Below the pieces are notes generated by a model. It saw only the letters and a program-made list of their open reading frames with translations, did not search any database and was not told the origin of the DNA. Shown here piece after piece: positions 12,568 through 45,801 of a DNA stretch of 64,000 nucleotides (positions within the stretch are counted from its first letter, which is position 1; each line of letters starts with the position of its first letter). The DNA is taken from assembly GCA_964423885.1 (NCBI GenBank), contig CAYRGD010000001.1, positions 24,156 to 88,155 on the forward strand, in the 5' to 3' direction. The position numbers and the translations under genes were made by a program. The DNA is from an uncultured Candidatus Saccharibacteria bacterium (GTDB taxonomy: Bacteria; Patescibacteriota; UBA1384; JACPKC01).

Positions 12568-12571
12568 GCGT

Positions 12572-18862: not shown

Positions 18863-18880
18863 AGAGGAAGGAATCGTCGC

Positions 18881-18909: not shown

Positions 18910-18931
18910 TTCCGGGAGTAAGGAGTATCCG

Positions 18932-24125: not shown

Positions 24126-24203
24126 TGGTCGGGGTGGGCGGATTTGAACCGCCGGTCTCCAGACCCCCAGCCTGGCGCATTAGGCCAACTATGCTACACC
24201 CCG
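24126..24203 (-). tRNA. tRNA-Pro (anticodon GGG)
   Basis: Reverse complement folds as CGGGGTG-TA-GCAT-AGTTGGCCTA-ATGC-G-CCAGG-CTGGGGG-TCTGG-AGACC-GGCGG-TTCAAAT-CCGCC-CACCCCG-A-CCA. Cloverleaf with anticodon GGG and an encoded CCA. Confidence 0.85.
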
Positions 24204-27429: not shown

Positions 27430-27504
27430 GCCGCCTTAGCTCAGCGGTAGAGCAGCTGTTTTGTAAACAGCAGGTCGTCGGTTCAAATCCGTCAGGCGGC
27501 TCCA
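27430..27504 (+). tRNA. tRNA-Thr (anticodon TGT)
   Basis: GCCGCCT-TA-GCTC-AGCGGTA-GAGC-A-GCTGT-TTTGTAA-ACAGC-AGGTC-GTCGG-TTCAAAT-CCGTC-AGGCGGC-T-CCA. One U:U mismatch in the T stem (50:64). A TATACT -10 element at 27413-27418 may drive the tRNA operon. Confidence 0.8.
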
Positions 27505-27507
27505 TGC

Positions 27508-27595
27508 GCTGGGGTACCCAAGCGGTCAACGGGGGCAGACTGTAAATCTGCTGGCCTATGCGCCTTCGTAGGTTCGAATCCTACCTCCAGCACCA
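27508..27595 (+). tRNA. tRNA-Tyr (anticodon GTA), class II with long variable arm
   Basis: GCTGGGG-TA-CCC...GGG-G-GCAGA-CTGTAAA-TCTGC-[16-nt variable arm]-GTAGG-TTCGAAT-CCTAC-CTCCAGC-A-CCA. Closely parallels E. coli tRNA-Tyr. Confidence 0.8.
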
Positions 27596-27618
27596 CTACA
27601 GCCGTGAACGGTCCATGC

Positions 27619-27693
27619 GCCCGAGTAGCTCAGGGGTAGAGCAACTCCATGGTAAGGAGTAGGTCAGGGGTTCAAGTCCCCTCTCGGGCTCCA
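27619..27693 (+). tRNA. tRNA-Thr (anticodon GGT)
   Basis: GCCCGAG-TA-GCTC-AGGGGTA-GAGC-A-ACTCC-ATGGTAA-GGAGT-AGGTC-AGGGG-TTCAAGT-CCCCT-CTCGGGC-T-CCA. Confidence 0.85.
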
Positions 27694-27712
27694 ACAGTCG
27701 AAAGGAACAGGT

Positions 27713-27898
27713 ATGGCGAAAAAGGGTAAGGTCCAGAAGTTCCACCTCACTTGCAGCGAATGCGGCGAGCGGAACTACGTGGCCAAGAAGAACACCGTCA
27801 ACGTGACCGGGAAACTGGCGCTGTCCAAGTACTGCGCGCGCTGCCGGCTCCACAAAGCGCACAACGAAACCAAGCTGCCGAACCCGAAGCCGCGCTGA
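27713..27898 (+). CDS. rpmG: 50S ribosomal protein L33
   Basis: MAKKGKVQKFHLTCSECGERNYVAKKNTVNVTGKLALSKYCARCRLHKAHNETK: the L33 family with a C4 zinc ribbon; AAAGGAA ribosome-binding site. Confidence 0.9.
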   Translation: MAKKGKVQKFHLTCSECGERNYVAKKNTVNVTGKLALSKYCARCRLHKAHNETKLPNPKPR

Positions 27899-27929
27899 CG
27901 CACGCCGGTTTGGTATGCTGTGCGGGCAG

Positions 27930-28003
27930 GGGAGCTTGGTGAAGTGGCATCACGACGGTCTCCAAAACCGTGGTCGGGGGTTCGATTCCCTCAGCTCCTG
28001 CCA
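27930..28003 (+). tRNA. tRNA-Trp (anticodon CCA)
   Basis: GGGAGCT-TG-GTGA-AGTGGCA-TCAC-G-ACGGT-CTCCAAA-ACCGT-GGTC-GGGGG-TTCGATT-CCCTC-AGCTCCT-G-CCA. Discriminator G is typical of Trp; the position after rpmG matches the conserved rpmG-tRNA-Trp arrangement. Confidence 0.8.
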
Positions 28004-29206: not shown

Positions 29207-31069
29207 CTAGCTATGGAACGGCCGGCGGATAATGAGATACGACACCATGCCCGACAAGACGAAGGCGATAAGCAGCGCCAGGCTCAAGCTGGTACCGGTC
29301 TGGGCGAGCCGCGAGGGCACCGTGGCCGTGGTCACGGTCGACGTCGCCGCCCGCACCGTGATCGTCTGGGTGCCTACCTGGCTGCCGATCCGTACCGTGG
29401 CGGTGTACGTGCCGGGATTCAGGTACGTATGCGACACCGACGCGCCGGTCGCGGTCGTGCCGTCACCGAAGTCCCAGGTGGCTGTCGCCGCATCGGGGCC
29501 CGTGACCGTCCCGGCTACCGTGAGCGGCGAGCTACCCGAGGTCGGCGTGAACGAATAGGTGAACGTCGGGGCTACGGGAGCGGACGCGATCGTGAAGCTG
29601 GCCGACTTCGTCTTGACCGTGCCGGCGTGCTCGTACGTCACGGTTACGGTGTACGGGCCGTCGGGCACGTGGGCGCCCGCGTCGTTCTTCTGATCCCACG
29701 TCCATGACTTGGAGCCGCCCGCCGCTAGCGTGGCTGCGGCTTGGGTCGAAATGGGCGAGAAGACACCCGTGGTGCCGCTCTTGATCCCGAACGGCGCGCC
29801 ATTGGGCAGCGTCAGCGGGTCGGTGCTCACGTTCTTCAAGCTGAACACCACCGGCTCGGCCGGGTCGTAGACGCTCTTCGACAGCGTCAGCACGGCATCG
29901 TCGGCAGTGTTGGGCGTCACCGTGACGGTTTTCTGTGATGTCTGGGTTGTGCCGTTCTGGGTCTGCGTCAGCGTGACTACGTACGAACCCGATGTCGCAT
30001 AGGTGTGCGACAAGTCTGCCCAGCCGCACGTCGTTGTCCCTATGCCGGTGCAGAGCGGCTGCTGGTCCTGGGCAGGCGAGCCGTCGCCCCAGTCCCAACG
30101 TTTCGTCACCCCGGTCGGGGTCGCGTCCGAATGGCCGGTGACCGTGAGCGGCGCCATGCCGCTAAGCGGTGTCACCGAAAACGAAATCGGGGCAGGGGAC
30201 GGGGGAGCCGGCGTCGAGACGGCCACGGTCTTCTGCGCGCTGAACGGATCCGAGGTGAGCCTGATTTGGTACGAGCCCGACGACTGGTAGGTGTGGGTCA
30301 CGGTCGCTGATCCGTTTTGGCTGGTTTGGCCGTCGCCGAAGTCCCAGTTCAAGACCAGGCCGGCTGCCTGCGTGCCGGTGTAGGTGGCGGTTACGGCAAG
30401 CGGGGCGGTGCCGCTCGCTGGCGTCACGGTAAAGTCGAAGTTGCTGATCGGCAGGTGCGGCGTGCCGAAGCTCAAGTCGTCGATCGCGACCGCGTACGAC
30501 TGCGACGCATTCTGTTTCTTGATCTCGAACTTGGCGATGCCGGTGCTGCTCCCCTTGGTCAATGTGACCGGGACGCTGTCGCAGCCGTTCCCGGTGCTCA
30601 CTACCTTGGATTCGATGGTTCCCCCGCCGATGTCGTAGCTCGTGACCACGGCGTTATTGAATTTGGTCAGCAGCACCACGGTCGACAGGCTGTCCACGAC
30701 CCGTCCGTTCGTGAAGCCGACGGTCAGCCCGTACGGGTCGAACGACCCGCCGGATTGGACGACCAAGGCGTTCGGCTGCGACGGTGCGCCGCTCCAGCCT
30801 TGGCAGATGCCGCTCGTGTCCGGCACGTAGAGCCGTGCGCCATCGCCCGCGCCCGACGAGTCGACGTAGATGCCCTGGGCGGCGTAGGCGTTATGGTCGA
30901 TCACCCCTTGGCCGCGGTCGTCGAAATGCAACACGGTCGTCACAGAATCCGCCTGCGACTGCTGGTTGGTGACCACACCCCAGTACCCGATGGATATCGA
31001 GAAAATCGCCACGGTCGCGCCGATGGCGGCACGGATCCTGCGCTGAATGCTGTCGACTGGTTTGGCCAC
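29207..31069 (-). CDS. PKD-repeat cell-surface protein with C-terminal LAQTG sortase sorting signal
   Basis: GTG start at 31069 sits 6 nt after AAGGAGGG; the track's upstream ATG at 31102 would include the ribosome-binding site. At least 3 PKD-like modules (WDFGDG/WDWGDG). C-terminus SRLAQTG + hydrophobic stretch + RRPFHS is a sortase sorting signal of the LAxTG (class-E-like) type. Confidence 0.75.
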   Translation of the reverse strand: MAKPVDSIQRRIRAAIGATVAIFSISIGYWGVVTNQQSQADSVTTVLHFDDRGQGVIDHNAYAAQGIYVDSSGAGDGARLYVPDTSGICQGWSGAPSQPNALVVQSGGSFDPYGLTVGFTNGRVVDSLSTVVLLTKFNNAVVTSYDIGGGTIESKVVSTGNGCDSVPVTLTKGSSTGIAKFEIKKQNASQSYAVAIDDLSFGTPHLPISNFDFTVTPASGTAPLAVTATYTGTQAAGLVLNWDFGDGQTSQNGSATVTHTYQSSGSYQIRLTSDPFSAQKTVAVSTPAPPSPAPISFSVTPLSGMAPLTVTGHSDATPTGVTKRWDWGDGSPAQDQQPLCTGIGTTTCGWADLSHTYATSGSYVVTLTQTQNGTTQTSQKTVTVTPNTADDAVLTLSKSVYDPAEPVVFSLKNVSTDPLTLPNGAPFGIKSGTTGVFSPISTQAAATLAAGGSKSWTWDQKNDAGAHVPDGPYTVTVTYEHAGTVKTKSASFTIASAPVAPTFTYSFTPTSGSSPLTVAGTVTGPDAATATWDFGDGTTATGASVSHTYLNPGTYTATVRIGSQVGTQTITVRAATSTVTTATVPSRLAQTGTSLSLALLIAFVLSGMVSYLIIRRPFHS

Positions 31070-31169
31070 GGTTCCCTCCTTACGCGTTGCGGTTGTTGCC
31101 ACTATACCCTACTGCGACTTGTGGATGGCGGGCTTTGCTATACTGGCACCACAGGAACGGAGGGACAGC

Positions 31170-31598
31170 GTGCTCAACGGATCGGCCAAGCGGAGCCTCA
31201 TCATTGTCGTAGCGTGCGTCGTGTTGCTCGTTGTCTTTGGTGCGACATACTATCTCTATACGCGCCGCTTAGCGGTAGTTGCGGAAGAGAACTCGCCCGT
31301 ACGTGGCACGGTCATCCAGGCGATTGGCAACAGTATCACGCTCCGGGATTTTGGTGAGGACGGTATGCTGTCCGACGATGATCAGACGCTCTTCTATGCA
31401 CTTACTGCGGATACTGTTGTTCGTGCGCCGCGCGCTGACGGCAGACTCGTTCAGACTGGCCTAGGCGCAGTGTATGTGGTGGGAGCTTTGGTCGTAGTTC
31501 GTGAAACGGCCGATGCCGGCAACGGTCTGGTCGAGCTACGCGCTGCTGACGTACTGTACACGCCTCCTGTGACGCCTGAGCAAGAGGAGACGCCGTGA
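31170..31598 (+). CDS. Small membrane-anchored protein (paralog of 33209-33631)
   Basis: GTG start 5 nt after GGAGGG. N-terminal TM then a beta-rich domain (RGTVIQAIGNSITLR...LFYALTADTVV...GLVELRAADVLY) alignable with gene 33209-33631. Lower GC than the window average. Confidence 0.55.
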   Translation: MLNGSAKRSLIIVVACVVLLVVFGATYYLYTRRLAVVAEENSPVRGTVIQAIGNSITLRDFGEDGMLSDDDQTLFYALTADTVVRAPRADGRLVQTGLGAVYVVGALVVVRETADAGNGLVELRAADVLYTPPVTPEQEETP

Positions 31599-32017
31599 CC
31601 GCACTCTACAATGTTGGTATTGGCGTGGTTGTCACCGTGCATATCGCATGGATCGCGATCATGTTGGCAGGAGCGGGCGCATCGCTCTTGGGTTTGCTGC
31701 GCCGCCGGCCGGTTCTCGAAGCGGGATACCTGGTTGCGATTGCGTTGACCGCGCTCAATCGCGTAGTTAGTCCAGATGTTTGTTGGTTGACCCAGGCCGA
31801 ACTCGTGTTGCGCCAGCTCGCTGGCCAGCCGATTACGCGCCTGGGGTTTATCGAGCGCGGCTTTGCTGCCTTGGGACTGTCGGTCAGTAGCTCCTTCATT
31901 ATGACCGCAGAAACCGCCTGGTTTATGATCGGCATAGGTGCCACCCTGGCGTGGCATCTTGGCAGCCTGATACAACGTAACAAAAGGCGCGGTAGCATTG
32001 GAGCGGAGGAAGCATGA
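31595..32017 (+). CDS. Polytopic small membrane protein
   Basis: GTGA overlap with the upstream gene; 3-4 predicted TM helices; no recognised motif. Confidence 0.5.
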   Translation: MTALYNVGIGVVVTVHIAWIAIMLAGAGASLLGLLRRRPVLEAGYLVAIALTALNRVVSPDVCWLTQAELVLRQLAGQPITRLGFIERGFAALGLSVSSSFIMTAETAWFMIGIGATLAWHLGSLIQRNKRRGSIGAEEA

Positions 32018-33192
32018 CACTACTGCGACGGACAATCGGGTTGTTTTTAATCGCATGTGCTGCAATTTCGGCATTCATGTTCAGTTTTCCGACCACTGCC
32101 GTAGCGGAAGTCCCCTGTATTAACACCGTCTATAATAATAACTGCACGACTGGTTCGTCGGGAACTTCAGGAACCGAGGCGCGGATGGCCCAGATTTCGC
32201 AGGTCAATCCCAGACAATGCGCCGCAAGTACTCTTTTTAATGCACTTGCGGGATATTCGACGGAAGGCGATACCGTCGTCTACACCTCGGAAGCTGTCCC
32301 AGGTATGACCCAAGTGCCAGGCTCGGGCCAATTCTCGACCGTCTATCGGGACGGCGCACCCATTGGCACAGCATCAACTACATTGAACGTGCTTGGCTGG
32401 CAAACGTTCCCCAACTCTCCATCCGGGGTTCACACGTACCGCGTCGACACGTATTTTGAGGCGCTTATTCCCACAGGATCCACGCTGGGTTATAACGTGA
32501 GCGTCGCATCCCCGGCTTTTGCGCCGCAAACGCGCCGAGGGCGCGACGTAACCATCACGAGTCCTGACGCGAGCTGCTCCCCAGGTAATTCAGGAGGGGG
32601 CTCTGCTCCCACTCCTACTCAGCCAACTGCGCCGCAGTCGATCGCGTTACAGACGCCGCAAGCATCCTGCGCGGGTACCGTCGCCCAGGTGCCGCTTGCG
32701 TGGTCCAGTACACTCACTCGTAACCAGAAGCAACTTACCTCTCGTGACGATACCGGTTTAGCAGGAGCGCTCGAGGTAGCGTATATCGCTCCTATCGAAA
32801 TTCCCTTAGCTACGGTCCAATACCAAGTCTTTCGCGACTCGTTTGTGATCGCGAATAACATTACCGGTACTACATATGCCGACGCTGCTGCACCGGCGGG
32901 ATCGCACACCTACTACATTGCGGGGGTAAGCAGTTCGTATAATACGTACCAGAGCGAGCCGAAAACCGTGACGGTGCCTGATTGTGGCGGCAATACGCCT
33001 ACGCCTCCGACTCCGGTAACGCCTCCTGTCACCGTGACGCCGCCGACGATGACGGTGCAGATCCAGGGCGCGGGCGCGGTCAAGCCGAACCAGACCTACC
33101 AGTACTGCGCGATCTTGAACGGCCTCTATATTCCCTCGGGCAGTACTGCCGCTCAGGCGGTACCGGCGCTGTGCAAGCCGCCGTACGAATGA
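32014..33192 (+). CDS. Secreted protein with Cys-bracketed FN3-like module shared with the 1172-aa protein downstream
   Basis: Signal peptide MTLLRRTIGLFLIACAAISAFMFSFPTTAVA. The module QASCAGTVAQVPLAWSS...YQVFRDSFVIANNITGTTYADAAAPAGSHTYYIAGVSSSYNTYQSEPKTVTVPDCGG aligns with aa about 375-460 of ORF 33628-37146. Pro/Thr-rich linker. ATGA overlap upstream. Confidence 0.55.
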   Translation: MTLLRRTIGLFLIACAAISAFMFSFPTTAVAEVPCINTVYNNNCTTGSSGTSGTEARMAQISQVNPRQCAASTLFNALAGYSTEGDTVVYTSEAVPGMTQVPGSGQFSTVYRDGAPIGTASTTLNVLGWQTFPNSPSGVHTYRVDTYFEALIPTGSTLGYNVSVASPAFAPQTRRGRDVTITSPDASCSPGNSGGGSAPTPTQPTAPQSIALQTPQASCAGTVAQVPLAWSSTLTRNQKQLTSRDDTGLAGALEVAYIAPIEIPLATVQYQVFRDSFVIANNITGTTYADAAAPAGSHTYYIAGVSSSYNTYQSEPKTVTVPDCGGNTPTPPTPVTPPVTVTPPTMTVQIQGAGAVKPNQTYQYCAILNGLYIPSGSTAAQAVPALCKPPYE

Positions 33193-33208
33193 TGCTATAC
33201 TGGCTGCA

Positions 33209-33631
33209 ATGCAGGAGGGCGTTAGTATGAGGAATCCATCAACTGGACGGACTATCGTTGTCGGTTTGATCGCAATCGCGCTGATTGCAGGTGGCGTCTA
33301 CGCCTATCAGCGTACCCGGAATAGCTCGGCGGTTGCGGTGCCGACCGACCCGCAGACGCTGCTGGCCGTCAACAGCCAAGTGATCGACGCGACCGGTAAC
33401 ACGGTCACCGTCCGCAGCATGGTCTATCCCGACGTGGTGCTGACGGTGGCGTTCACCGATGCGACCACGTACGGCAAAACGCAACCCGACGGCACCGTGT
33501 CCGACGAACTGCCATTCGATTTTGTAATCGGTGACATCGTGACCGTCCCTGCGCTGCACGTTGCCGATACGGGCCTGATCGAAGTCGACCAAGTAGTGCT
33601 CGTGCAAGCATTCCCGGGAGGACGGCCATGA
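33209..33631 (+). CDS. Small membrane-anchored protein (paralog of 31170-31598)
   Basis: N-terminal TM (IVVGLIAIALIAGGVYAY), then SQVIDATGNTVTVR...VVLTVAFTDATTYG...GLIEVDQVVLV, parallel to the first gene of the operon. Confidence 0.55.
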   Translation: MQEGVSMRNPSTGRTIVVGLIAIALIAGGVYAYQRTRNSSAVAVPTDPQTLLAVNSQVIDATGNTVTVRSMVYPDVVLTVAFTDATTYGKTQPDGTVSDELPFDFVIGDIVTVPALHVADTGLIEVDQVVLVQAFPGGRP

Positions 33632-36600
33632 ACGCTCGTCTTATTGGCACGATCGCGGCTTCCTTTTTTGTGCTGCTGCTTGGCGCGGGATCTGCTGATG
33701 CAGCCCGAGTTACCGATCGAGTGGGAGGCAGTACTCCGGTTGGTCCTCACTGTGGCGGTCCGGGTGGCTATATGCCGAATGCGCGCTATACGAACTGGGG
33801 CATCACTCAATACGGCAACCCGCCGTATGACTGGGTTCGCTGCTCCGCGCAGCCACCAGCGGGCCGGACGAGCGACGGCCTCGAATACGGCAGTCCTCGG
33901 TATATCAGTCCGGAAATTTTGAGTTACTGGCGCACGAATTCACTTCCGTTTCTGCCCCGTGACTTCGGTGTCTCCGATCCCTATTACTATATAGGCCTCG
34001 ATAGCAACGTCCAGCAGCTTGAGGTCGAAGAGTTGTCCTTTTTGGCATATCGGATCGAGACGTCGACGGAGAGCGGCGGTGGCTCGTCGTGCAATCCGCT
34101 CACCGGTCTTTGCAATCCGTTGATAGGCGGCTTGGGAGGCGGTGGCAAGGGTGGTGGCGGCCGCGTCAAGATCTATCTCCCAGCCACGAGCACGTCGAAA
34201 CTGGTCAACATTGAAACTGGCGAGACATTTTTCAGCGAGACCGCCAATAGCAACCCGCCTCGGGAATCAGGCTCGACCGCGAACGGCTGTTTTCCGTACT
34301 TTGGCAACTCGGTCCGAACCGGGGCTAGTATGTCCAGCTGCTTCAATATCAGCGTTCCCAGGAAGGTAGTGCTTACCAAGCAGCAAAAGAACGACATGTA
34401 TAAAGTCGTGCTGGCCAACGAAGTAACACCGTCGGGCCCTTGGACGCTCGTGTCTGATTGCAGCTATAACACAGGAGTGTTAGGAACACAGGTACAATCC
34501 GGAGGCTCATGCCTATTTCAGCTTGGCGCAAGCGCATCCTATGCTGGGCAGCCAATTGCCTTCGAAGGTAATGGATCCAGTGCTGCCGCAGCCTCGCTCT
34601 GTATGGGCGGTGGCGTCCTGAGCTCGTGCACACCGCAGCCCATTAATAAAGTGTTCGTTACTGGTGGGATGGAGATGAATACCTCCCGCCTGTCGGCATC
34701 GGAAAGTCCACTTGGGACGCTCCCGACCCCGCCACCACCGCCCAAGATCCCGCTCAATAACCCGACCACCGGCTGCTCGAATAATAAGGCGTACGTGACG
34801 CTGACATGGTCGGCACCGTCGGGCGTTGCATTGAAGCCTGGCGCCACCGTGTTCCGTGACAACGTCGCGATCGGTAGCGTGGGCACAGGCACTACCTTTA
34901 CCGACAGCGCTCCGTTGCCTGGTGCGCACGCCTACTTCGTGAGCGGTGCGGATGCGTCCTATACCGTGATTAAGAGCGATCCTAAGACCATTACCACAGC
35001 ACCGGGTTGTATCCCGGCGGGGATCACCGTGGAATTGTCCGGGCCCACGAGCGACCTCAAACGGAACAGCCAGTACCAGTACACGGCAACGGTAAAGAAC
35101 AGTGTGACCGGTGAAACGCTTCCGATCTCATCGGGTGGCACGCCGGGTGGAATGACGACCATTAATTTCGACGGCGAGTCGCGCGGTTTCAAGGGCACCA
35201 ACGCGTGGGCGTCGCGGGGATTGATCGTGGAGTCCGGCATAGCGCCGTCGATTCCTGGCGACGGTGCGTCGCTGGTTGCGGCCGGCAGTGCCGCGTGCCC
35301 GGGGTACGTCGCGCCGTCGTCACCCAGCTACATGATCGGTCACGAACCGCGGTTCGGGGATGCGGCCTGGCTATCGTTCAAGCTGAAATTCGTTGACAGC
35401 AAGGTAGTCGACCAAGCGACGTTCAAGGTGGTGCACGGCGGTACGTCCGCGATCCGGGTACAGGCGATCGATACCGCTGGCCGCGTCATTAGCGACCGGA
35501 CGGTTGGCGGCCCGGGCAGCGGTGTCTGCGTCGGGTCGGCCCAAGTCGTGTCGCTTGCTAAAGGCAGCACGACCGGCATCGCGGAAATCCGCATCGGCCG
35601 CACCGACGAGGCGTCGTTGACCAACGAAGCGCTCCGCACCAACGGGTTCGGCATCGACGACCTGTCGTACAGCCAGCCCCATAGTCCCGGCGAATCGATC
35701 ACCTGGTCGCTCGTCAATAACCGGATCGGATCGCTGTCGCCCACGACCGCCACGCCGACCACCTTGTCGACCGGGTCGAGCTGCGCGATCGGTACTGCCA
35801 CTGACATGGTGGCTGCCACGGTTACGGCCGTAATCGGCGGTCAGACGCTGACCGGTACTGGGTCGCTGCCGGTGGCTATGCAGGATCCGTGTGCCACGCC
35901 GACCGGCACCGCACCGTATGCGGTCGATGACCAGGCTGCGACTACCGTAGGCACTCCGATAGCTATTCCGGTGCTTGCCAACGACGGTGATATCGACAAC
36001 GACCTCGACCCGTCGAGCCTGGCCGTGGCCGCGCAACCGGCCACTGGAACGGGTACGGTCACTAAGACCGGCACGCAGCTGACGTACAACCCGGGTGCGT
36101 TTACTGGTCCGACCGCTTCATTCATGTACCGCATCTGCGATGCGGGCAGCCGCTGCTCGACCGCCAGTGTCCAGGTGACCATCCTACCTGTGCCGACCGA
36201 TATCACCTATGCCTGGTCGGTAGACCGGCCGGATAGTACGCACAAGGAATTCGGCGATTTGGCTGCGGCCAACGTCAACCCGGTCAAATTCACGACCGGC
36301 GAGAACTGTACGCTACTCAACGCCTTCGGTCCGGTGACGCTCAAGCTCGACGTCACGGCGAAATTGAACGGGCAGGCCGTAACCGGCACGGCGTCGAAGA
36401 TCCTGTCCGCTGCCAGCGTCTGCGGCGGTAACATCGTCGGCGATATCTTTGGGGGCGGCAGTGGTACCGGCACTGGTGTGTCCGGCTTGAGCGTTGGGCG
36501 GAACTCGGTAGTGTCGTCGACCGGCAAGGTGAGTGTCGGGCGGAACCAGGAAACCACGAACACCTACAATATCGAGAACTACGACCCGACGTCGGGATTG

Positions 36601-37146
36601 GCTTGGAGCGATGTGCAGGCTAAGTCCGAGTGCACCACGAAGCAGCTTATTACGCAGAAGGCGAAAACGATCGGGAGCTCGATCGGCGGGACGTTCAACT
36701 TGAATCCAGCCGGTGCCAGCAATCCCGAAGGCGGCGTCTGGTATGCGGCGGGCGATCTCACGATCGCGAACGGTACCACCTTCGTGGGCAAGGGCACGAT
36801 CATCGCTGGTGGCAAGGTAACGGTAGCCGGCACGGTGTCATACGGATCAGGTGGCAACTTAGGCGTCATCGCCTGCGGGAGCGAGGCGTCAGCGACCGCG
36901 CCGAAAGCGATCTCGTTCGTAGGCATCCAAGGCAGCAGTATCGTCGGCGCGTACTTCGCCCCGAACGGCACGATCCGGTTCGGTACGAACATCGACCGCG
37001 CAGTGGGTCTGTTCGTAGGTAACGCGTTGCAGCTCGACCCGTCGCTCACGAATCTGACGATCCTCTACGACGAACAGATCACCGCCTCGCCGCCACCTGG
37101 GTTCAGCCAGTCGTTCGTCCCGGCACTCACGGAATCGGGCTCGTAA
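33628..37146 (+). CDS. Giant secreted surface protein (1172 aa): FN3-like, cadherin/Ig-like and C-terminal beta-helix-like domains; candidate pilus-associated adhesin
   Basis: Signal peptide MNARLIGTIAASFFVLLLGAGSADA. Cys-bracketed FN3-like module (CSNNKAYVTLTWSAP...TVFRDNVAIGSVGTGTTFTDSAPLPGAHAYFVSGADASYTVIKSDPKTITTAPGC). Ig/cadherin-like domain (AVDDQAATTVGTPIAIPVLANDGDIDNDLDPSSL...). C-terminal GTIIAGGKVTVAGTVSYGSGGNLGVIACGSEAS...AVGLFVGNALQLDPSLTNLTI resembles ice-binding-like/DUF3494 beta-helices (from memory). ATGA overlap upstream; pilN follows directly. Confidence 0.55.
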   Translation: MNARLIGTIAASFFVLLLGAGSADAARVTDRVGGSTPVGPHCGGPGGYMPNARYTNWGITQYGNPPYDWVRCSAQPPAGRTSDGLEYGSPRYISPEILSYWRTNSLPFLPRDFGVSDPYYYIGLDSNVQQLEVEELSFLAYRIETSTESGGGSSCNPLTGLCNPLIGGLGGGGKGGGGRVKIYLPATSTSKLVNIETGETFFSETANSNPPRESGSTANGCFPYFGNSVRTGASMSSCFNISVPRKVVLTKQQKNDMYKVVLANEVTPSGPWTLVSDCSYNTGVLGTQVQSGGSCLFQLGASASYAGQPIAFEGNGSSAAAASLCMGGGVLSSCTPQPINKVFVTGGMEMNTSRLSASESPLGTLPTPPPPPKIPLNNPTTGCSNNKAYVTLTWSAPSGVALKPGATVFRDNVAIGSVGTGTTFTDSAPLPGAHAYFVSGADASYTVIKSDPKTITTAPGCIPAGITVELSGPTSDLKRNSQYQYTATVKNSVTGETLPISSGGTPGGMTTINFDGESRGFKGTNAWASRGLIVESGIAPSIPGDGASLVAAGSAACPGYVAPSSPSYMIGHEPRFGDAAWLSFKLKFVDSKVVDQATFKVVHGGTSAIRVQAIDTAGRVISDRTVGGPGSGVCVGSAQVVSLAKGSTTGIAEIRIGRTDEASLTNEALRTNGFGIDDLSYSQPHSPGESITWSLVNNRIGSLSPTTATPTTLSTGSSCAIGTATDMVAATVTAVIGGQTLTGTGSLPVAMQDPCATPTGTAPYAVDDQAATTVGTPIAIPVLANDGDIDNDLDPSSLAVAAQPATGTGTVTKTGTQLTYNPGAFTGPTASFMYRICDAGSRCSTASVQVTILPVPTDITYAWSVDRPDSTHKEFGDLAAANVNPVKFTTGENCTLLNAFGPVTLKLDVTAKLNGQAVTGTASKILSAASVCGGNIVGDIFGGGSGTGTGVSGLSVGRNSVVSSTGKVSVGRNQETTNTYNIENYDPTSGLAWSDVQAKSECTTKQLITQKAKTIGSSIGGTFNLNPAGASNPEGGVWYAAGDLTIANGTTFVGKGTIIAGGKVTVAGTVSYGSGGNLGVIACGSEASATAPKAISFVGIQGSSIVGAYFAPNGTIRFGTNIDRAVGLFVGNALQLDPSLTNLTILYDEQITASPPPGFSQSFVPALTESGS

Positions 37147-37215
37147 GCGGAGTTATCCGCAGGTGGCCGGAACGGTCCGGCCCGCGTATACTGTCGTAAC
37201 AGACATCGGAGGGGC

Positions 37216-37956
37216 ATGCTTGATTTGAGGGGCACGAATTCGGCACCGAAGCCGGCGCAGCAGCCGGTAGCAGCGGGCGTACCGACGGTCGGCGCGAACG
37301 ACGTCTCGTTCACGCCTGCGCCGCGCCGTTCGTCGCCCATTTTGGAAACCGGCAGCGCCGGCCCTGGCAAGACGATCCAAGGGGTAGGGGCGGGGCGCAC
37401 CAACGACCCGATCGTGATGGTCGTCGCCTTGGTGTCCGTGGCGCTCGCGGGCGTGACCGGGCTCGTTGCCAGCTACTTGTCTGTGCAGCAGGCCTCGCGC
37501 CTGACCACGGCCACGAACCAGTACGATTCCTTGGTGGCGCAGCGGACCACCGGCACCACCGGCGATAACCTCAAGCTTATCGAAACCACGGCCGCGCAGC
37601 TCACCGCCTTGCAAGGCGCGACGGCCACGAGTACGCCGTGGGCCGGCCTGCTCGACGTCTTCGCGAGCCAGGTGCCGGGCGCGATCCAGCTCAAGAGCAG
37701 CACCTTCGATTCCAGAACCAGCCTCGTGACGATTACCGGCAGCGGCAACGCCTACGAAGACGTCGCTCATCTGGCGGCGGCGCTCGGCGCGTCCGACCGG
37801 TTCAAGGACGTGGCGCTCCAGTCGGCCGCGTCGGTCGTGACCGACACCTCGTCGCAGATCGACTTCTCGCTCGCGGCCACGTACGTGCCGGTGGCGCCTG
37901 CCGCCCAAGCGGCCGCGTCAGGCACCGGTACCGCTACCCAAGGAGCCACGCAATGA
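37216..37956 (+). CDS. pilN: Type IV pilus assembly protein PilN-like
   Basis: Cytoplasmic N-terminus, single TM (IVMVVALVSVALAGVTGLVA), periplasmic coiled-coil and ferredoxin-like region. GGAGGGG ribosome-binding site. The context is pilO-pilB-pilT-pilC. Confidence 0.6.
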   Translation: MLDLRGTNSAPKPAQQPVAAGVPTVGANDVSFTPAPRRSSPILETGSAGPGKTIQGVGAGRTNDPIVMVVALVSVALAGVTGLVASYLSVQQASRLTTATNQYDSLVAQRTTGTTGDNLKLIETTAAQLTALQGATATSTPWAGLLDVFASQVPGAIQLKSSTFDSRTSLVTITGSGNAYEDVAHLAAALGASDRFKDVALQSAASVVTDTSSQIDFSLAATYVPVAPAAQAAASGTGTATQGATQ

Positions 37957-38546
37957 GCACCGACGCCCAGCCTGCGAGCGCACGCTCGAACGATATCCTG
38001 TGGACGGCCGTCGGTCTGTTGGGCGTAGCTGCCATGGGCTACTTCTACGTCGCGCCCGCCATCGCCAAGCTGAAAGAATCCCGGGCTGCCGCCCAGGCCA
38101 AGCAGAACGACGTTACGGCGATGACCGACCAGATCGCACAGATCGACCAGATCGGCCAGCAGCTGGCCGCCCAAACGGAAAGCCTGAAGCTGTTGAACCT
38201 GGCAGTGCCGGCCACCCCGGCCTTCGACCAATTGCTCATGGCGCTGGCTGCGATGGCGTCTCAGTCGGGTGTCGAACTGTCCACGGTCACGCCGGCGGTC
38301 GGCAGTACCGGCGCGTCGACCCCGTCGGCATCGGTGTCGGTCAAAGGGACGTATACCGGGATCCACCTGTTCCTCGAAAACGCGGCGAAGAACATCCGCC
38401 CGCTCACGATCACGAACCTGGGGCTCGCGGCCGCGACGGTCGAAGGCCAGGCCACGCCGCTCATTACTGCCACCATGACCATGACCGCCGCGCAGGCCGT
38501 GCTGCCCACCGATCCGGCCGCGACGCCCGAAGGGAGCCAGCAATGA
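37953..38546 (+). CDS. pilO: Type IV pilus assembly protein PilO-like
   Basis: Start MSTDAQP (ATGA overlap with pilN). TM (ILWTAVGLLGVAAMGYFYVAPAI), then coiled coil (AKLKESRAAAQAKQNDVTAMTDQIAQIDQIGQQLAAQTESLKLL), then a C-terminal domain. Confidence 0.6.
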   Translation: MSTDAQPASARSNDILWTAVGLLGVAAMGYFYVAPAIAKLKESRAAAQAKQNDVTAMTDQIAQIDQIGQQLAAQTESLKLLNLAVPATPAFDQLLMALAAMASQSGVELSTVTPAVGSTGASTPSASVSVKGTYTGIHLFLENAAKNIRPLTITNLGLAAATVEGQATPLITATMTMTAAQAVLPTDPAATPEGSQQ

Positions 38547-38800
38547 CCGCGCAACAGACCACGATCGCTGCCAGCGTCGCGCTCCTTGCCGTGCTGCTCG
38601 GGTTCGGTATCTGGCTCATTGCATTGTCGAACCCGTCTCCCGAACTTGTTGCCGCCAAGGAACAGCCGCCCCAGCCGCTGCCGAGCTTGAGCGTCGACCA
38701 GCTACAGCAGCAGGCAGGGAGCCGCCAGATTTTCGGCGCGCTGCCGATTGATCTCAACCTGGCCGCGCTCGGCCGTCTCGACCCGTTCGCGAACCGGTAG
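38543..38800 (+). CDS. Small single-TM pilus-cluster protein (PilP-like?)
   Basis: MTAQQTTIAASVALLAVLLGFGIWLIAL...; ATGA overlap with pilO; 85 aa. Confidence 0.45.
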   Translation: MTAQQTTIAASVALLAVLLGFGIWLIALSNPSPELVAAKEQPPQPLPSLSVDQLQQQAGSRQIFGALPIDLNLAALGRLDPFANR

Positions 38801-38809
38801 GGGAACAGT

Positions 38810-41305
38810 ATGGCACAAGACCCGGCGAACCTTCCGGCCGACCAGCTTGCCGATTTGGCATCGGTCACGGCTGCCGCCAAACAGCTCGGCTTGGACATGG
38901 CCCGCGTCGACGCGTCGAGCCCTGAACCGGCGGCGCTGAAGCTCATCGCCAAGCCCTTGGCGCTCGAACACCGCCTGGTGCCGCTGAAGCTCGACGGCAA
39001 ATCCCTGTACGTGGCGGTGTCCGACCCGTCGCTGCTGACCAAACCCGCGCCTGCGTTCCTGCAGGAACTCAAAGCCCAGGGTTACGTGCTCAAGCTGTTT
39101 CTGACCCCGGCCGCCGATTTTACGGCCGCGGTTACGGCCTACGACGCCCCGGCACCTGTGCCAGCTGCGCCCGAGCCCGCCGGTATCCCGGCTGCCCCGG
39201 CGACGGTGCCGCCCGTGGCACCGGCCGTTCCCACGCCAGCTCCCGTACCTGCGCCCGCCGCACCGCCGGTGATGCCGTCTGTCCCGGCTGCGGTGCCGAC
39301 ACCGCCTGCGCCTGCGGCCCCTGTACCTGTGCCGGCCTCGGTTATCTCGTCGCAGATCCCGGCCGTCGACCTCATGACGCGGCAGATCCCAAAGGCGACG
39401 CTCGAACGGTTCCCCGAAGACGTGGCGACCAAGTACCAGATCGTGGTCTTCGAACTGTCGGCCGACGGCAAGGAAGCGTCCGTAGCGGCGGTCAAACCCG
39501 ACGACCAGCGGATCCGGGATATCTTGAAATACGTCGAAGAGCGCAATGCGATCCGCATCCATTTGTACCGCACCGATCCCAAGGGGTTCGCCGCGGCGCT
39601 CAAGGGCTACCAGGTAGGCGTACTTGCGCCGAAGCCGTCGGTCGCGCCTGCTCCGGCACCGGTTCCCGCCTCGGCACCCGTGCCATTGGCCCGTGCCTCG
39701 GCCGACAAGATCGCCGCCGTCGCCGCCAAGCCGATGGCTGCCGTACCGCCGAAGCCTACGGCCCCGCTTCCGCCCGTACCGCCCGCCGCGGTGCCGCAAC
39801 CCGCGCCGATCGGAGGCACGATGCCCGCGCCCGGTGCCGTACCCGCACCGGTCCGCCCAGCTACTCCGGCCACTCCTGCGCCGACACCTGCCCAGCCGAA
39901 ACCGCTACCAGCGGCCCAACAACCTGCGTCCGACGACACCACTCCCACGATCACGCTCGCCGAACTCCAGAGCCAGGTCGGCCTGGCGGTCAATACCGAC
40001 ACCGAATCGGGCCAGGCCGCGATGGCCCAGCTCGTGAGCGGCGACGAACAGGCGAACCTTGACCAGACGCTCGGGACGCCGGTCAACGACTTCGCCGCGT
40101 TCGAGACGGTCATGAAGACCGGCCTTATTCCCAAGATCGTCGCGGCCATCGTCTACTACGCCTCGGTATTGCTCGCCTCGGACATCCACATCGAGCCGAG
40201 CGAGACCGCGCTCCGTGTCCGTTTCCGCATCGACGGCAAGCTGCGCAATGTCGTCAAATTGCCGGTCGAGCTCCATGCGCCGCTCACCTCGCGCATCAAG
40301 ATCCTGTCGAAATTGAAAATCGACGAGAACCGCCTGCCGCAAGACGGCCGGTTCAACGTCCAGGTCGCCAGCCACCAGGTCGACCTGCGCGTCTCGACGC
40401 TGCCCACGATCCACGGCGAAAAGGTGGTGATCCGCCTGCTCGACAAGACCGCGGGCGTGAAGCAGCTGTCGGCGCTGGGCTTGAACGGCATGAACCTGAA
40501 GCGCGTCAGCGAGGCGGTCACCAAACCGTACGGCATCATTCTGGTCACCGGCCCGACCGGCTCGGGCAAGTCGACCACGCTCTACGCGATGCTCACCGAA
40601 ATCAACCGGCCCGACGTGAACATCATCACGCTCGAAGACCCGGTGGAATACCAGGTCGAGGGGATCAACCAGACCCAAGTGAAGCCCGCGATCGGCTACA
40701 CCTTCGCCGACGGCCTGCGGTCGATCCTGCGTCAGGACCCGAACGTGATCATGGTCGGCGAAATCCGTGACTCGGAAACGGCCGGCCTGGCCACCCAGGC
40801 GGCGTTGACCGGCCACTTGGTGCTGTCGACGCTCCACACCAACAACGCGGCCGGGGCGATCCCGCGGCTCATCGACATGGACGTCGAGCCGTTCCTTATC
40901 GCCTCGTCGCTCGACATTATTATCGCCCAGCGCCTAGTGCGCCGCCTGTGCGAACAGTGCAAGGTGCCGGTGACGCCGCCGGCCGAAATCCTGGCCGAAA
41001 TCACGAAAGAACTCGACCAGTCGCCGGTGGCCGAGTTGAAGAACTTGGCCAAGCGCCCGATGGCGTTCTACGGACCCAAGGGCTGCGACCAGTGCGCCGA
41101 CGGCTACCAGGGACGGCTCGGTATCTACGAGGTGATCGCCATGTCCGAATCGATCGCGCAGCTGGCGATCAAGGAAGCCTCGGGATCGGTGATCGAGGAA
41201 ACCGCCCGCAAAGAGGGGATGATGAGTATGCGCCAAGACGGCATCCTGAAGGCGCTCGAAGGCCAGACCTCGATCGACGAAATCCTGCAGGCGACATCCG
41301 AGTAA
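38810..41305 (+). CDS. pilB: Type IV pilus assembly ATPase PilB (GspE family) with duplicated N-domain and two Pro/Ala-rich linkers
   Basis: Two GSPII_E N-terminal-like domains, each followed by about 80-110 aa of PAPVPA-type low complexity. C-terminal ATPase with Walker A VTGPTGSGKSTTLYAML, Asp/His boxes, and a tetracysteine motif (CEQC...CDQC). Confidence 0.9.
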   Translation: MAQDPANLPADQLADLASVTAAAKQLGLDMARVDASSPEPAALKLIAKPLALEHRLVPLKLDGKSLYVAVSDPSLLTKPAPAFLQELKAQGYVLKLFLTPAADFTAAVTAYDAPAPVPAAPEPAGIPAAPATVPPVAPAVPTPAPVPAPAAPPVMPSVPAAVPTPPAPAAPVPVPASVISSQIPAVDLMTRQIPKATLERFPEDVATKYQIVVFELSADGKEASVAAVKPDDQRIRDILKYVEERNAIRIHLYRTDPKGFAAALKGYQVGVLAPKPSVAPAPAPVPASAPVPLARASADKIAAVAAKPMAAVPPKPTAPLPPVPPAAVPQPAPIGGTMPAPGAVPAPVRPATPATPAPTPAQPKPLPAAQQPASDDTTPTITLAELQSQVGLAVNTDTESGQAAMAQLVSGDEQANLDQTLGTPVNDFAAFETVMKTGLIPKIVAAIVYYASVLLASDIHIEPSETALRVRFRIDGKLRNVVKLPVELHAPLTSRIKILSKLKIDENRLPQDGRFNVQVASHQVDLRVSTLPTIHGEKVVIRLLDKTAGVKQLSALGLNGMNLKRVSEAVTKPYGIILVTGPTGSGKSTTLYAMLTEINRPDVNIITLEDPVEYQVEGINQTQVKPAIGYTFADGLRSILRQDPNVIMVGEIRDSETAGLATQAALTGHLVLSTLHTNNAAGAIPRLIDMDVEPFLIASSLDIIIAQRLVRRLCEQCKVPVTPPAEILAEITKELDQSPVAELKNLAKRPMAFYGPKGCDQCADGYQGRLGIYEVIAMSESIAQLAIKEASGSVIEETARKEGMMSMRQDGILKALEGQTSIDEILQATSE

Positions 41306-41314
41306 GGAGCGAGC

Positions 41315-42388: not shown

Positions 42389-42389
42389 T

Positions 42390-43894: not shown

Positions 43895-43983
43895 AGCTGT
43901 CCACAGCTTGCGGCAGTGGAATTTGTGCGACAATGGCGACAAGACGCTCCGAGCGGAGCGATAGGAGGTACCGGATGTTGCAA

Positions 43984-44478: not shown

Positions 44479-44482
44479 TGGA

Positions 44483-45301: not shown

Positions 45302-45314
45302 CCGAAGGAGGGTC

Positions 45315-45800: not shown

Positions 45801-45801
45801 C

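What the first reader, a model, noticed from the sequence alone, without database searches (positions are those of the whole stretch)
31170..37146. Lower-GC, translationally coupled five-gene surface operon directly upstream of the type IV pilus genes: paralogous modules and a 1172-aa putative adhesin
Five + strand genes are chained by overlapping stops and starts (31598/31595, 32017/32014, 33631/33628). Their GC content looks clearly lower than the flanking DNA. Genes 1 and 4 are paralogous small proteins, each an N-terminal TM anchor plus a roughly 100-aa beta domain (IQAIGNSITLR vs IDATGNTVTVR; GLVELRAADVLY vs GLIEVDQVVLV). Genes 3 and 5 share a Cys-bracketed FN3-like module (YQVFRDSFVIANNITGTTYADAAAPAGSHTYYIAGVSSSYNTYQSEPKTVTVPDCG vs TVFRDNVAIGSVGTGTTFTDSAPLPGAHAYFVSGADASYTVIKSDPKTITTAPGC). 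Gene 5 is a giant secreted protein with Ig/cadherin-like and beta-helix-like domains, and pilN-pilO start 70 nt downstream. I recognise none of these proteins as a standard Tfp component. The layout suggests a dedicated adhesin or tip module, or another accessory surface system co-expressed with the pilus, possibly horizontally acquired. This is my best candidate in the window for an undescribed system.
Basis: partly seen in the sequence, partly recalled or inferred. Interest (0 to 1): 0.8.

Follow-up and report, generated by a model that had tools for sequence, protein, structure and literature searches.

The report
Pilus-linked adhesin cassette in an ultrasmall bacterium
Five genes next to the type IV pilus genes of a Patescibacteria (CPR) genome encode a giant secreted adhesin-like protein and helpers; its conserved tail domain is found next to pilN in every relative examined and resembles known pilus-tip modules, which makes it a candidate host-attachment device.

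Summary
Five + strand genes (31170-37146) are present, three of four junctions are overlapping stop/start codons, GC3 is 0.60-0.72 against 0.81-0.90 in the flanks, and both paralogies are real.

The cassette is not a foreign island. Relatives carry a 3-gene core at the same site: a membrane-anchored OB-fold protein, a DUF2784 membrane protein and a giant Sec-secreted protein. The window and its nearest relative have a duplicated, rearranged version.

Most likely this is a non-pilin, pilus-associated adhesin or tip plug: like PilY1 in logic, like ComZ and cyanobacterial PilX in fold. Tip location, binding and co-transcription remain unproven. I rate it a new variant of a known kind, interest about 0.6.

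The parts
29207..31102 (-). Divergent neighbour: 631-aa surface protein. It has an N-terminal TM/signal segment, a 175-aa domain shared with g5, three PKD domains, and a C-terminal LAQTG + TM + RRPFHS sortase-like anchor. The true start is probably about 30 nt inside the listed ORF.
   Evidence: Pfam PKD E 4e-27. BLASTP to g5 510-687 E 8e-13. Orthologues sit at the same place in L003, L006 and L009. The NCBIfam LPXTG_anchor hit is weak only (13.4 vs 15.9 bits).
31137..31146 (+). Promoter-like extended -10 (TGCTATACTGG), 31 nt upstream of g1. A TTGTGGA(C/T)-type -35-like element is conserved in relatives.
   Evidence: The exact 10-mer occurs twice in the window, before g1 and before g4. All 10 TATACT sites are on the + strand, most of them about 30 nt before start codons. 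Relatives' upstream regions are shown.
31170..31598 (+). g1: bitopic membrane protein with an N-terminal TM helix and an acidic extracytoplasmic OB-fold barrel. It is the orthologue of the 'small' gene of the 3-gene core.
31595..32017 (+). g2: DUF2784-like polytopic membrane protein with a conserved C-W/L-LT motif.
   Evidence: Pfam DUF2784 E 1.1e-6, 29.1 bits vs cut-off 29.7. Orthologues in L003 (39% identity) and L006 (32%) carry recorded DUF2784 hits.
32014..33192 (+). g3: 392-aa Sec-secreted, 9-Cys protein. It is homologous to the N-terminal third of the undivided giant of L003 and ends with the Cys-bracketed FN3-like module plus the first strands of the next domain, so it is a truncated giant paralogue.
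   Evidence: BLASTP to L003 giant 61-376, 32% identity, E 7e-30. To g5 408-490, E 3e-12. To the L001 orthologue, 43% identity.
33194..33203 (+). Second copy of the TGCTATACTGG -10-like element, in the g3/g4 gap.
33209..33631 (+). g4: second OB-fold membrane protein and paralogue of g1. The probable true start is 33227.
   Evidence: BLASTP g1/g4 E 5e-7. 48% identity to the L001 orthologue. RBS AGGAGG lies before 33227.
33628..37146 (+). g5: 1172-aa Sec-secreted multidomain protein with 22 Cys. Signal peptide aa 1-25. Cys/Gly-rich N-domain aa 26-370, found only in the window and L001. FN3-like module and Ig-like region aa 375-505.
   Evidence: The signal peptide was read by eye (n-h-c regions, ADA|A). 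Only two full-length homologues exist among 5.8e9 clusters.
35143..35697 (+). g5 aa 506-690: unassigned 175-aa domain (INFDD...GIDDLSY, 2 conserved Cys). It is also found at the N-terminus of the sortase-type PKD neighbour and in L008's 312-aa protein.
   Evidence: No Pfam or PDB sequence match.
35896..36186 (+). g5 aa 757-853: Big_9 / cadherin-like Ig domain.
   Evidence: Pfam Big_9 E 2.3e-13.
36400..37143 (+). g5 aa 925-1172: the family-defining C-terminal domain. It is an ice-binding-protein-like triangular beta-solenoid with a flanking helix and ends in the YDxxIxxxPPPGF motif.
37147..37215 (+). g5/pilN spacer. It holds two GC-rich hairpins without a T-run, then CGTATACTG (-10-like) 29 nt before pilN, then a GGAGGGG ribosome-binding site.
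   Evidence: A comparable -10-like element and AAGGAGGGGC RBS occur in the spacers of all 7 relatives.
37216..38800 (+). Context: pilN (37216-37956), pilO (37944-38546) and an 85-aa TM protein ending GRLDPF (38543-38800). These are followed by pilB, pilT, pilC, six small E5-bearing pilins and pilD up to 47482. There is no pilM.
   Evidence: Pfam. Pilin N-termini.

Best explanation
The five genes are a duplicated, rearranged copy of a conserved three-gene cassette: a membrane-anchored OB-fold protein, a DUF2784 membrane protein and a large Sec-secreted protein. The cassette lies immediately upstream of pilN-pilO in the type IV pilus (T4P) operon of a clade of Patescibacteria.

The large protein (g5) belongs to a rare family built as signal peptide + highly variable adhesin-type modules + an invariant C-terminal ice-binding-protein-like beta-solenoid. 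I propose that this solenoid is the docking or 'plug' module that seats the protein on the pilus, most likely at the tip on the minor-pilin priming complex. This is what PilY1/PilC do in Proteobacteria, and what the solenoid of ComZ (Thermus) and PilX (cyanobacteria) is proposed to do. The variable N-terminal array would then bind the surface of the host cell on which these epibionts live.

g3 is a truncated secreted paralogue. g1 and g4, one per secreted protein, are probably dedicated membrane partners that hold or hand over the secreted protein. g2 is an accessory membrane component.

Shown: gene structure, paralogy, folds, family distribution and conserved adjacency to pilN.
Inferred: docking on the pilus, tip location, adhesion, and the roles of g1, g2 and g4.
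For: 1. Conserved linkage. A family member lies directly upstream of pilN (3-180 nt) in all 11 genomes examined. Seven of these were reached through the protein itself, not through PilN: L001, L008, L009, L010, L011, L012, L013. The three distant ones (about 26-32% identity) have unrelated upstream genes (ABC transporter, SMC-like protein, BipA), so the adjacency is not just clade-wide synteny.

3. Sequence homology to a pseudopilin. P0052 (phmmer E 6e-8; BLASTP 3e-11, including the YDxxIxxxPPPxF end motif) has a PilX/GspK-like hydrophobic N-terminus without Glu5 (read by eye). It is the last of four pilin-like genes directly before a pilM-pilN fusion and pilO in a secretin-bearing cluster, which is the GspK position.

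4. PilY1-like architecture. Members have a Sec signal, a variable N-terminus and a conserved C-terminus. The variable parts include VWA, DUF11, SdrD_B, SpaA, Big_2, PKD, fn3 and NHL.

5. No alternative cap in the cluster. All six pilins are small (153-194 aa) and all keep Glu5, so there is no bulky or E5-less cap pilin.

6. Precedent in the phylum. In Saccharibacteria TM7x, a large T4P-locus protein without a PilD-type signal (PilX2) is needed for host binding (PMC12206443).

7. Pairing. Small OB proteins and secreted proteins occur 1:1: window 2:2, L008 2:2, L003, L006 and L009 1:1.
Against: - There is no experimental or structural evidence that the protein touches the pilus. The IBP-like solenoid is also common in pilus-unrelated secreted proteins, and IBPs score slightly better than ComZ. 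Foldseek ranks ComZ only 23rd, probability 0.69.
- g5 has no pilin helix and no recognisable pilin fold (no N_methyl hit).
- The profile finds neither ComZ nor IBPs at sequence level in the PDB.
- pilN appears to have its own promoter in every genome, so co-expression is not guaranteed.
- The OB-fold and DUF2784 genes are confined to the close clade, so they are not core to whatever the family does.
- The Pfam DUF7305 score of g5 is below threshold: 19.8 vs 27 bits.
- Only 11 loci were sampled, from a family of about 100 representatives.
Confidence: 0.5

Rival explanations
1. A pilus-independent surface adhesin system. The giant protein is secreted and held on the cell envelope, for example by the membrane-anchored OB-fold partner. 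It is merely co-located or co-regulated with the pilus because both serve host attachment: long-range pilus, short-range adhesin.
For: g5 has a Sec signal and no pilin features. OB membrane proteins and secreted proteins pair 1:1. The same 175-aa domain is displayed by the neighbouring sortase-type PKD protein. Separate promoter-like elements precede the cassette and pilN.
Against: The OB partner is missing in distant loci, yet the family member stays glued to pilN. Minimal members (about 365 aa) have almost nothing but the solenoid, so the conserved function is not adhesion modules alone. There is sequence homology to a GspK-position pseudopilin.
Confidence: 0.2
2. A structural part of the pilus machine in a cell without an outer membrane. 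The solenoid protein would be bound to PilN/PilO and form a wall-spanning collar or guide, taking the role that PilP/PilQ have in diderms.
For: The position next to pilN-pilO is invariant, sometimes with only a 3-nt gap (L011). The family is present even in minimal form. These operons lack pilM, pilP and pilQ and carry only an 85-aa PilP-motif-like peptide.
Confidence: 0.12
3. [quoted passage not shown] The conserved C-terminal domain would be the recognition module. The TcpF comparison is from my own knowledge.
For: It is a Sec-dependent protein encoded inside a T4P operon, with a conserved domain plus variable cargo.
Against: Adhesin-type repeats and a wall-anchored paralogous domain suggest a cell-associated function. 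No evidence for release. This rests on analogy only.
Confidence: 0.08
4. A DNA-uptake receptor module. The ComZ-like solenoid would bind DNA at the pilus and the OB-fold membrane proteins would capture it at the membrane.
Against: The OB domains are strongly acidic, pI 4.1-5.2, net charge -2 to -8. The solenoid is also acidic (pI 5.1). The variable Ig/VWA/cadherin modules point to protein or glycan ligands.
Confidence: 0.05
5. A foreign genomic island that happened to insert beside the pilus genes.
For: GC3 is 3-6 SD below the flanks. A tRNA cluster lies 3 kb upstream.
Against: The cassette and its neighbours (PKD gene, two small ORFs, holB-TPR) are syntenic in relatives. In those relatives its GC3 equals that of the pil genes. 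In the window the low-GC3 tract ends inside g5 (0.61 in the N-domain, 0.76-0.80 in the C-half), which looks like allelic replacement within a resident locus. No integrase or repeats were seen.
Confidence: 0.03

Closest known systems
PilY1 / PilC (Proteobacteria, Myxococcus): non-pilin T4P tip adhesins
   Different: The conserved domain is a beta-solenoid, not the PilY1/PilC beta-propeller; there is no Pfam or NCBIfam PilY1/PilC hit. It is encoded upstream of pilN rather than inside a minor-pilin operon. No pilus association has been shown.
ComZ (Thermus thermophilus, PDB 6qvi) and cyanobacterial PilX: cap pilins carrying an IBP-like beta-solenoid
   Different: ComZ and PilX have a pilin fold with the solenoid inserted between its last two strands, and a hydrophobic N-terminal helix. 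g5 and nearly all family members have a cleavable-looking Sec signal, no N_methyl motif, and the solenoid at the very C-terminus after adhesin modules.
Ice-binding proteins / DUF3494 (PF11999) and Pfam DUF7305
   Different: g5 has no sequence-level membership: DUF7305 scores 19.8 bits against a 27-bit cut-off and there is no PF11999 hit. Nothing suggests ice binding. The genomic context is a pilus operon.
TM7x PilX1 / PilX2 (Saccharibacteria T4P; PMC12206443)
   Same: Same phylum. Large T4P-locus proteins without a PilD-type signal, proposed as host-binding adhesins. PilX2 is needed for normal host binding.
   Different: Those are described as lollipop pilins with a C-terminal jelly-roll or 7-bladed propeller, and their loci contain pilM. 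Here the fold is a solenoid, there is no pilin helix, and the locus has no pilM.
Pam pili of CPR (bioRxiv 10.64898/2026.03.03.709456)
   Same: A CPR-specific surface filament system with Sec-secreted Ig-like subunits and membrane-anchored helpers.
   Different: None of g1-g5 hits the NCBIfam Pam models. Only the PKD neighbour gives a sub-threshold PamR hit through its FN3/PKD domains (41.7 vs 300 bits). Pam chaperones are two-domain PapD-like proteins with a C-terminal TM helix, whereas g1 and g4 are single OB barrels with an N-terminal TM helix. The Pam operon neighbourhood is ATP synthase, not T4P.

Membership tests
PilY1/PilC tip adhesins | C-terminal PilY1/PilC beta-propeller domain | tested here: not met
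   No such Pfam or NCBIfam hit. The predicted C-terminal fold is a beta-solenoid.
PilY1/PilC tip adhesins | Non-pilin, Sec-dependent, encoded in a T4P cluster, with a variable N-terminus and conserved C-terminus | tested here: met
   Sec-like N-termini in nearly all of about 100 members (by eye). Adjacent to pilN in 11/11 loci. Variable Pfam content N-terminally.
PilY1/PilC tip adhesins | Physical association with the minor-pilin tip complex; required for piliation or adhesion | not testable with these tools
   Needs multimer modelling (structure jobs exhausted) or experiments.
ComZ / PilX-type solenoid cap pilins | IBP-like triangular beta-solenoid | tested here: met
ComZ / PilX-type solenoid cap pilins | Pilin-type hydrophobic N-terminal helix / pseudopilin fold hosting the solenoid | tested here: not met
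   No N_methyl hit. The N-terminus is a Sec-type signal (MNARLIGTIAASFFVLLLGAGSADA|A). The solenoid is C-terminal to Ig-like modules. Whether minimal 365-aa members keep a pilin beta-sheet remnant was not tested.
Pfam DUF7305 (PF23981) | Score at or above the gathering threshold (27 bits) | tested here: not met
   g5 scores 19.8 bits, E 7.9e-4. 13 of 65 relatives match at E<1e-3, best 1.2e-8, so the family is related to DUF7305 but g5 is below the cut-off.
Ice-binding-like DUF3494 (PF11999) | Sequence match to PF11999; ice-binding face | tested here: not met
   No Pfam hit for g5, only fold similarity. One relative (P0052) hits at E 1.6e-7.
DUF2784 (PF10861), for g2 | Score at or above the gathering threshold (29.7 bits) | tested here: inconclusive
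   29.1 bits, E 1.1e-6. Orthologues in L003 and L006 have recorded DUF2784 hits.
CPR Pam pilus components (NCBIfam CPR_pilus_Pam*) | Match to a Pam model at its cut-off | tested here: not met
   No hit for g1-g5 at E<=0.1. The PKD neighbour scores 41.7 vs 300 bits for PamR.
PilY2 (PA4555), for g1/g4 | Small OB-like barrel encoded next to the T4P non-pilin adhesin | tested here: inconclusive
Sortase (LPXTG) anchored adhesins, for g5 | C-terminal LPXTG-like motif + TM + basic tail | tested here: not met
   g5 ends ...PPPGFSQSFVPALTESGS with no TM segment. The neighbour at 29207-31102 does end LAQTG + TM + RRPFHS.
PGF-CTERM / archaeosortase-type sorting signal, for the PPPGF tail | PGF motif followed by a TM helix and basic residues at the extreme C-terminus | tested here: not met
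   No TM segment follows. The motif also occurs twice internally in P0052, so it closes the domain rather than acting as a sorting signal.

The most novel reading that the evidence does not exclude
The family is a previously unrecognised class of type IV pilus cap. It would be a GspK/PilX-type solenoid pseudopilin that lost its pilin helix, became a free-standing Sec-exported 'plug', and now docks non-covalently on the tip of pili built only from small E5-bearing pilins. It would carry a rapidly shuffled array of adhesin modules that sets the host range of Patescibacteria epibionts. Dedicated membrane-anchored OB-fold proteins would act as loading chaperones, and this operon type would work without a locus-encoded PilM.
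Probability: 0.3. Interest if true: 0.75.

Novelty: new variant of a known kind. Interest (0 to 1): 0.6.

Why it matters
Patescibacteria make up a large share of bacterial diversity and live attached to host cells. Type IV pili are the best-supported attachment organelle, but what recognises the host is largely unknown.

This family gives a concrete candidate that can be searched for by sequence. It has an invariant pilus-locus-linked solenoid carrying hypervariable adhesin modules, here caught in the act of duplication, domain exchange and probable allelic replacement.

If it sits on the pilus, it would extend the 'solenoid tip plug' idea (Thermus ComZ, cyanobacterial PilX) to a non-pilin form. 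It would also provide a marker for predicting host specificity from metagenomes. If it does not, it is still a conserved but uncharacterised component of a pilM-less T4P operon type.

Tried and rejected
- **Pam pilus membership.** Rejected: no NCBIfam Pam hits for g1-g5 and different helper architecture.
- **Foreign island.** Rejected on synteny and on GC3 in relatives.
- **PPPGF tail as a C-terminal sorting signal or donor strand.** Weakened: no TM segment follows, and the motif occurs internally, twice, in P0052.
- **g1/g4 as DNA receptors.** Unlikely: the domains are acidic.
- **X as a PilM substitute.** Rejected: it is secreted, whereas PilM is cytoplasmic. No PilM was found in 28 ORFs of the window scanned.
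- **Searches that gave little.**
  - The word-indexed protein search found only 2 (g5), 4 (PilN) and 3 (profile) proteins.
  - The genome scan found only L001 again.
  - Two metagenome scans found nothing new.
  - The afdb50 fold library was unavailable.
  - A PDB profile search with the solenoid family found no ComZ or IBP at sequence level.
  - No paper mentions DUF7305.
Full report
**1. What is in the sequence**

The window is 64.5% GC. Its closest relatives are metagenome-assembled Patescibacteria/CPR genomes: 'Patescibacteria group bacterium' JAYRIO010000076, AAB701_01115 and Candidatus Berkelbacteria.

Five + strand genes are present as described:
- g1, 31170-31598. The GTG start has a GGAGG site 8 nt upstream.
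- g2, 31595-32017.
- g3, 32014-33192.
- g4, 33209-33631. It more likely starts at 33227, behind AGGAGG.
- g5, 33628-37146 (1172 aa).

The g1/g2, g2/g3 and g4/g5 junctions are GTGA or ATGA overlaps. g3/g4 is a short gap.

Downstream come pilN (37216), pilO, an 85-aa membrane protein, pilB, pilT, pilC, two pilins, pilD and four more pilins, then ileS. No pilM was found among the 28 larger ORFs scanned.

GC3 of g1-g5 is 0.60-0.72, against 0.75-0.90 (mean about 0.84) for 16 other genes. Both paralogies are significant: g1/g4 E 5e-7 and the g3/g5 module E 3e-12. The divergent - strand gene at 29207-31102 encodes a PKD-repeat protein with a LAQTG + TM + basic tail. It shares a 175-aa domain with g5 residues 510-687, E 8e-13.

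**2. The cassette in relatives**

The word-indexed search with g5 found only itself and one 52%-identical protein. That protein's contig reads g3'-g4'-g5'-pilN-pilO.

PilN homologues, 51-53% identical, led to four more genomes. Two of them show a simpler arrangement upstream of pilN: small protein (135-139 aa), DUF2784 (132-137 aa), giant (1031-1224 aa), then pilN-pilO-85 aa-pilB-pilT-pilC and so on. The PKD gene is divergent upstream, and in L003 the holB-TPR neighbourhood of the window is kept as well.

BLAST comparisons give the following:
- g1 is the orthologue of the 'small' gene (31-33% identity).
- g2 is the orthologue of the DUF2784 gene (32-39%).
- The N-terminal third of the L003 giant matches g3 (32% over 330 aa, E 7e-30).
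- The middle and C-terminus of the L003 giant match g5.

So the lineage of the window and L001 carries a duplicated, rearranged cassette. g3 is a truncated giant paralogue that ends just after the shared FN3-like module. g4 is a second copy of the small gene. g5 has a new Cys/Gly-rich N-terminal domain (aa 26-370), seen only in these two genomes.

L008 independently has small-312 aa-small-giant. L009 has small-giant; the giant is really 992 aa and overlaps the small gene's stop. Small and secreted proteins are therefore always 1:1.

**3. Is it foreign?**

No. The locus is syntenic across the clade. In L001, L003 and L008 the cassette's GC3 equals that of the adjacent pil genes. The clade spans 42-64% GC.

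In the window the GC3 deficit covers g1-g4 and the g5 N-domain (0.61). It fades to 0.76-0.80 in the C-terminal half of g5. The simplest reading is a recent recombinational replacement of the variable 5' part of a resident locus by an allele from a lower-GC relative. This is an inference, and no donor was found.

**4. Transcription signals**

The exact 10-mer GCTATACTGG occurs only twice in the window: 31 nt before g1, and 31 nt before the probable g4 start. All ten TATACT sites are on the + strand, and most lie about 30 nt before start codons, including pilN and a pilin gene.

The giant/pilN spacers of all seven relatives contain a comparable TGnTAT(A/G)CT-like element and an AAGGAGGGGC ribosome-binding site. 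The regions upstream of the small genes share a TTGTGGAC-N12-TGnTATACT arrangement. No T-tract terminator follows g5.

The sequence therefore suggests three promoters (g1-g3, g4-g5, pilN onward) with possible read-through. It does not suggest one obligatory operon.

**5. The family-defining domain**

The last 250 residues of g5 are the only part conserved in every giant (33-54% identity).

phmmer of aa 925-1172 against 1.84 billion representatives found 103 proteins at E<=1e-3, 41 of them at E<=1e-10. They range from 122 to 1521 aa, and the domain is C-terminal in nearly all.

Pfam on 65 of them gave DUF7305 in 13. Upstream of the domain it gave a changing set of adhesin-type modules: DUF11, SdrD_B, CarboxypepD_reg, Big_2, Big_9/cadherin, VWA, fn3, SpaA, PKD, NHL and others. 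There was no N_methyl hit. Nearly all begin with a Sec-type signal peptide (by eye).

AlphaFold2 with a 41-sequence alignment gave pLDDT 86 and pTM 0.84: a beta-solenoid with one long flanking helix.
- Foldseek: the top 22 hits are all IBP/DUF3494, with ComZ at rank 23.
- A family profile finds neither at sequence level in the PDB.

ComZ is a competence pilin whose solenoid can only be accommodated at the pilus tip (PMC6561018). Cyanobacterial PilX proteins carry the same solenoid and are proposed to replace PilY1 as the tip plug (bioRxiv 10.64898/2026.02.12.705559).

**6. Linkage to pilN beyond the close clade**

Three distant members were looked up: P0035, P0037 and P0084 (26-32% identity, E 2e-13 to 5e-5). 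Each lies immediately upstream of pilN-pilO-(81-98 aa)-pilB. Their upstream genes are unrelated to those of the window: an ABC transporter, SMC-like proteins, and BipA. Including L008-L010, that makes 11 of 11 genomes.

A weaker homologue, P0052 (E 6e-8), contains two copies of the C-terminal half, including the YDxxIxxxPPPxF ending. It starts with a PilX/GspK-like hydrophobic segment that lacks Glu5 (KRG|SILLL, by eye). It is the fourth of four consecutive pilin-like genes, directly before a pilM-pilN fusion and pilO, in a cluster with a secretin, pilB and pilC. That is the GspK position in the G-H-I-J-K-L-M order; the T2SS gene order is from my own knowledge.

Thus the X-pilN-pilO adjacency mirrors K-L-M, and the solenoid is shared at sequence level with a cap-type pseudopilin.

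In the window all six pilins are small (153-194 aa) and all keep Glu5. The cluster therefore encodes no obvious cap pilin of its own.

**7. The helpers**

g1 was modelled with 10 sequences (pLDDT 80). It is a TM helix (residues 5-40) followed by a five- or six-stranded barrel.

Charge distribution in most orthologues puts the barrel outside the cell. The barrels are acidic (pI 4.1-5.2), which argues against nucleic-acid binding. The family is found only in the close clade.

g2 is a borderline DUF2784 (29.1 vs 29.7 bits) of unknown function.

**8. Mechanism proposed**

g5 is exported by Sec. Its C-terminal solenoid docks on the pilus, most likely on the minor-pilin priming complex, so that it ends up at the tip as plug and adhesin. 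The variable Ig/FN3/cadherin-like array and the unassigned 175-aa domain bind the host surface. The same 175-aa domain is also displayed by the wall-anchored PKD neighbour. g1 and g4 hold or hand over their cognate secreted proteins at the membrane.

Shown: architecture, folds, family, linkage.
Inferred: docking, tip location, ligand binding, helper roles.

I put 0.5 on 'pilus-associated adhesin/plug'. The rivals are a pilus-independent adhesin (0.2), a machine part (0.12), a secreted cargo (0.08), a DNA receptor (0.05) and a foreign island (0.03).

**9. Comparison and novelty**

In logic it resembles PilY1/PilC, but it fails the defining propeller test. In fold it resembles ComZ/PilX, but it fails the pilin-helix test. 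It is related to Pfam DUF7305 but scores below threshold. It is not part of the recently described CPR Pam pilus.

In Saccharibacteria TM7x, large T4P-locus proteins without PilD-type signals (PilX1, PilX2) have been implicated in host binding. Those have different folds, and their loci contain pilM.

My literature searches found no description of this family or of its link to pilN.

Verdict: a real, conserved, uncharacterised feature. It is a new variant of a known kind, the T4P-associated non-pilin adhesin/tip plug. Interest about 0.6.

Noticed in passing
window 38543-38800 (+); also L003 11292-11549, L008 6210-6461, L011 8796-9041, L012 10347-10643, L013 7032-7286: An 81-98-aa single-TM protein lies between pilO and pilB in every locus and always ends in G(R)x(D/N)PF. 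From memory this resembles the PilNO-binding N-terminal segment of PilP, so it may be a minimal PilP-like peptide in a cell with no secretin. It has no Pfam hit.
   Followed up: partly
window 29207-31102 (-): Divergent PKD-repeat surface protein with a LAQTG + TM + RRPFHS sortase-type end. It carries the same unassigned 175-aa N-terminal domain as g5 aa 506-690, so the same putative binding module seems to be displayed both wall-anchored and on the giant protein. The listed GTG start at 31102 overlaps a conserved CACTATACCCTA element (a -10-like TATAGT on the - strand), so the true start is probably about 30 nt further in.
   Followed up: partly
window, 10 sites: 1082, 18904, 25458, 27413, 28467, 31139, 33196, 37187, 45287, 47491: TATACT occurs 10 times against 4.2 expected, all on the + strand. 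At the sites checked (1082, 31139, 33196, 37187, 45287) it lies 12-31 nt upstream of a start codon. This looks like the genome's preferred (extended) -10 box with very short leaders.
   Followed up: partly
window 37216-47482 and all related loci: This T4P operon type has no pilM next to pilN, whereas TM7x loci do (PMC12206443). PilN carries an 80-aa cytoplasmic N-terminal extension that begins with a conserved MLDLRGT. Whether pilM is elsewhere in the genome cannot be told from the window.
   Followed up: partly
window 38810-41305 (+): PilB is 831 aa. It has a roughly 250-residue Pro/Ala-rich low-complexity stretch between its N-terminal domain and the ATPase core. Relatives are also 797-861 aa.
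   Followed up: no
window 27430-28003 (+) and 24126-24203 (-): tRNA cluster (Thr-Tyr-Thr, then Trp) 3 kb upstream of the cassette, and a tRNA-Pro at 24.1 kb. No integrase or repeats were seen nearby.
   Followed up: no
window 9960-11915 (+), 12551-14134 (+), 21794-24055 (-), 16046-19813 (-): Further large, probably surface-exposed proteins. One is a DUF7948 + SBBP beta-propeller-repeat protein with the next-lowest GC3 (0.75). One is a 527-aa DUF5018-like protein. One is a 753-aa protein with no Pfam hit. One is a 1255-aa class A PBP with Big_7 and fn3 C-terminal extensions.
   Followed up: no
L014 8001-9749 (P0052): In a secretin-bearing, response-regulator-rich T4P/T2SS-like cluster, the GspK-position pseudopilin carries two tandem half-solenoid repeats. 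Each ends in YDxxIxxxPPPYF, and the protein gives an Ice_binding Pfam hit. This is a sequence-level bridge between cap pseudopilins and the CPR family.
   Followed up: partly
window 53505-54617 (+): dprA (DNA-processing protein A) and topA lie downstream of the pilus locus, consistent with a competence role for the pilus.
   Followed up: no
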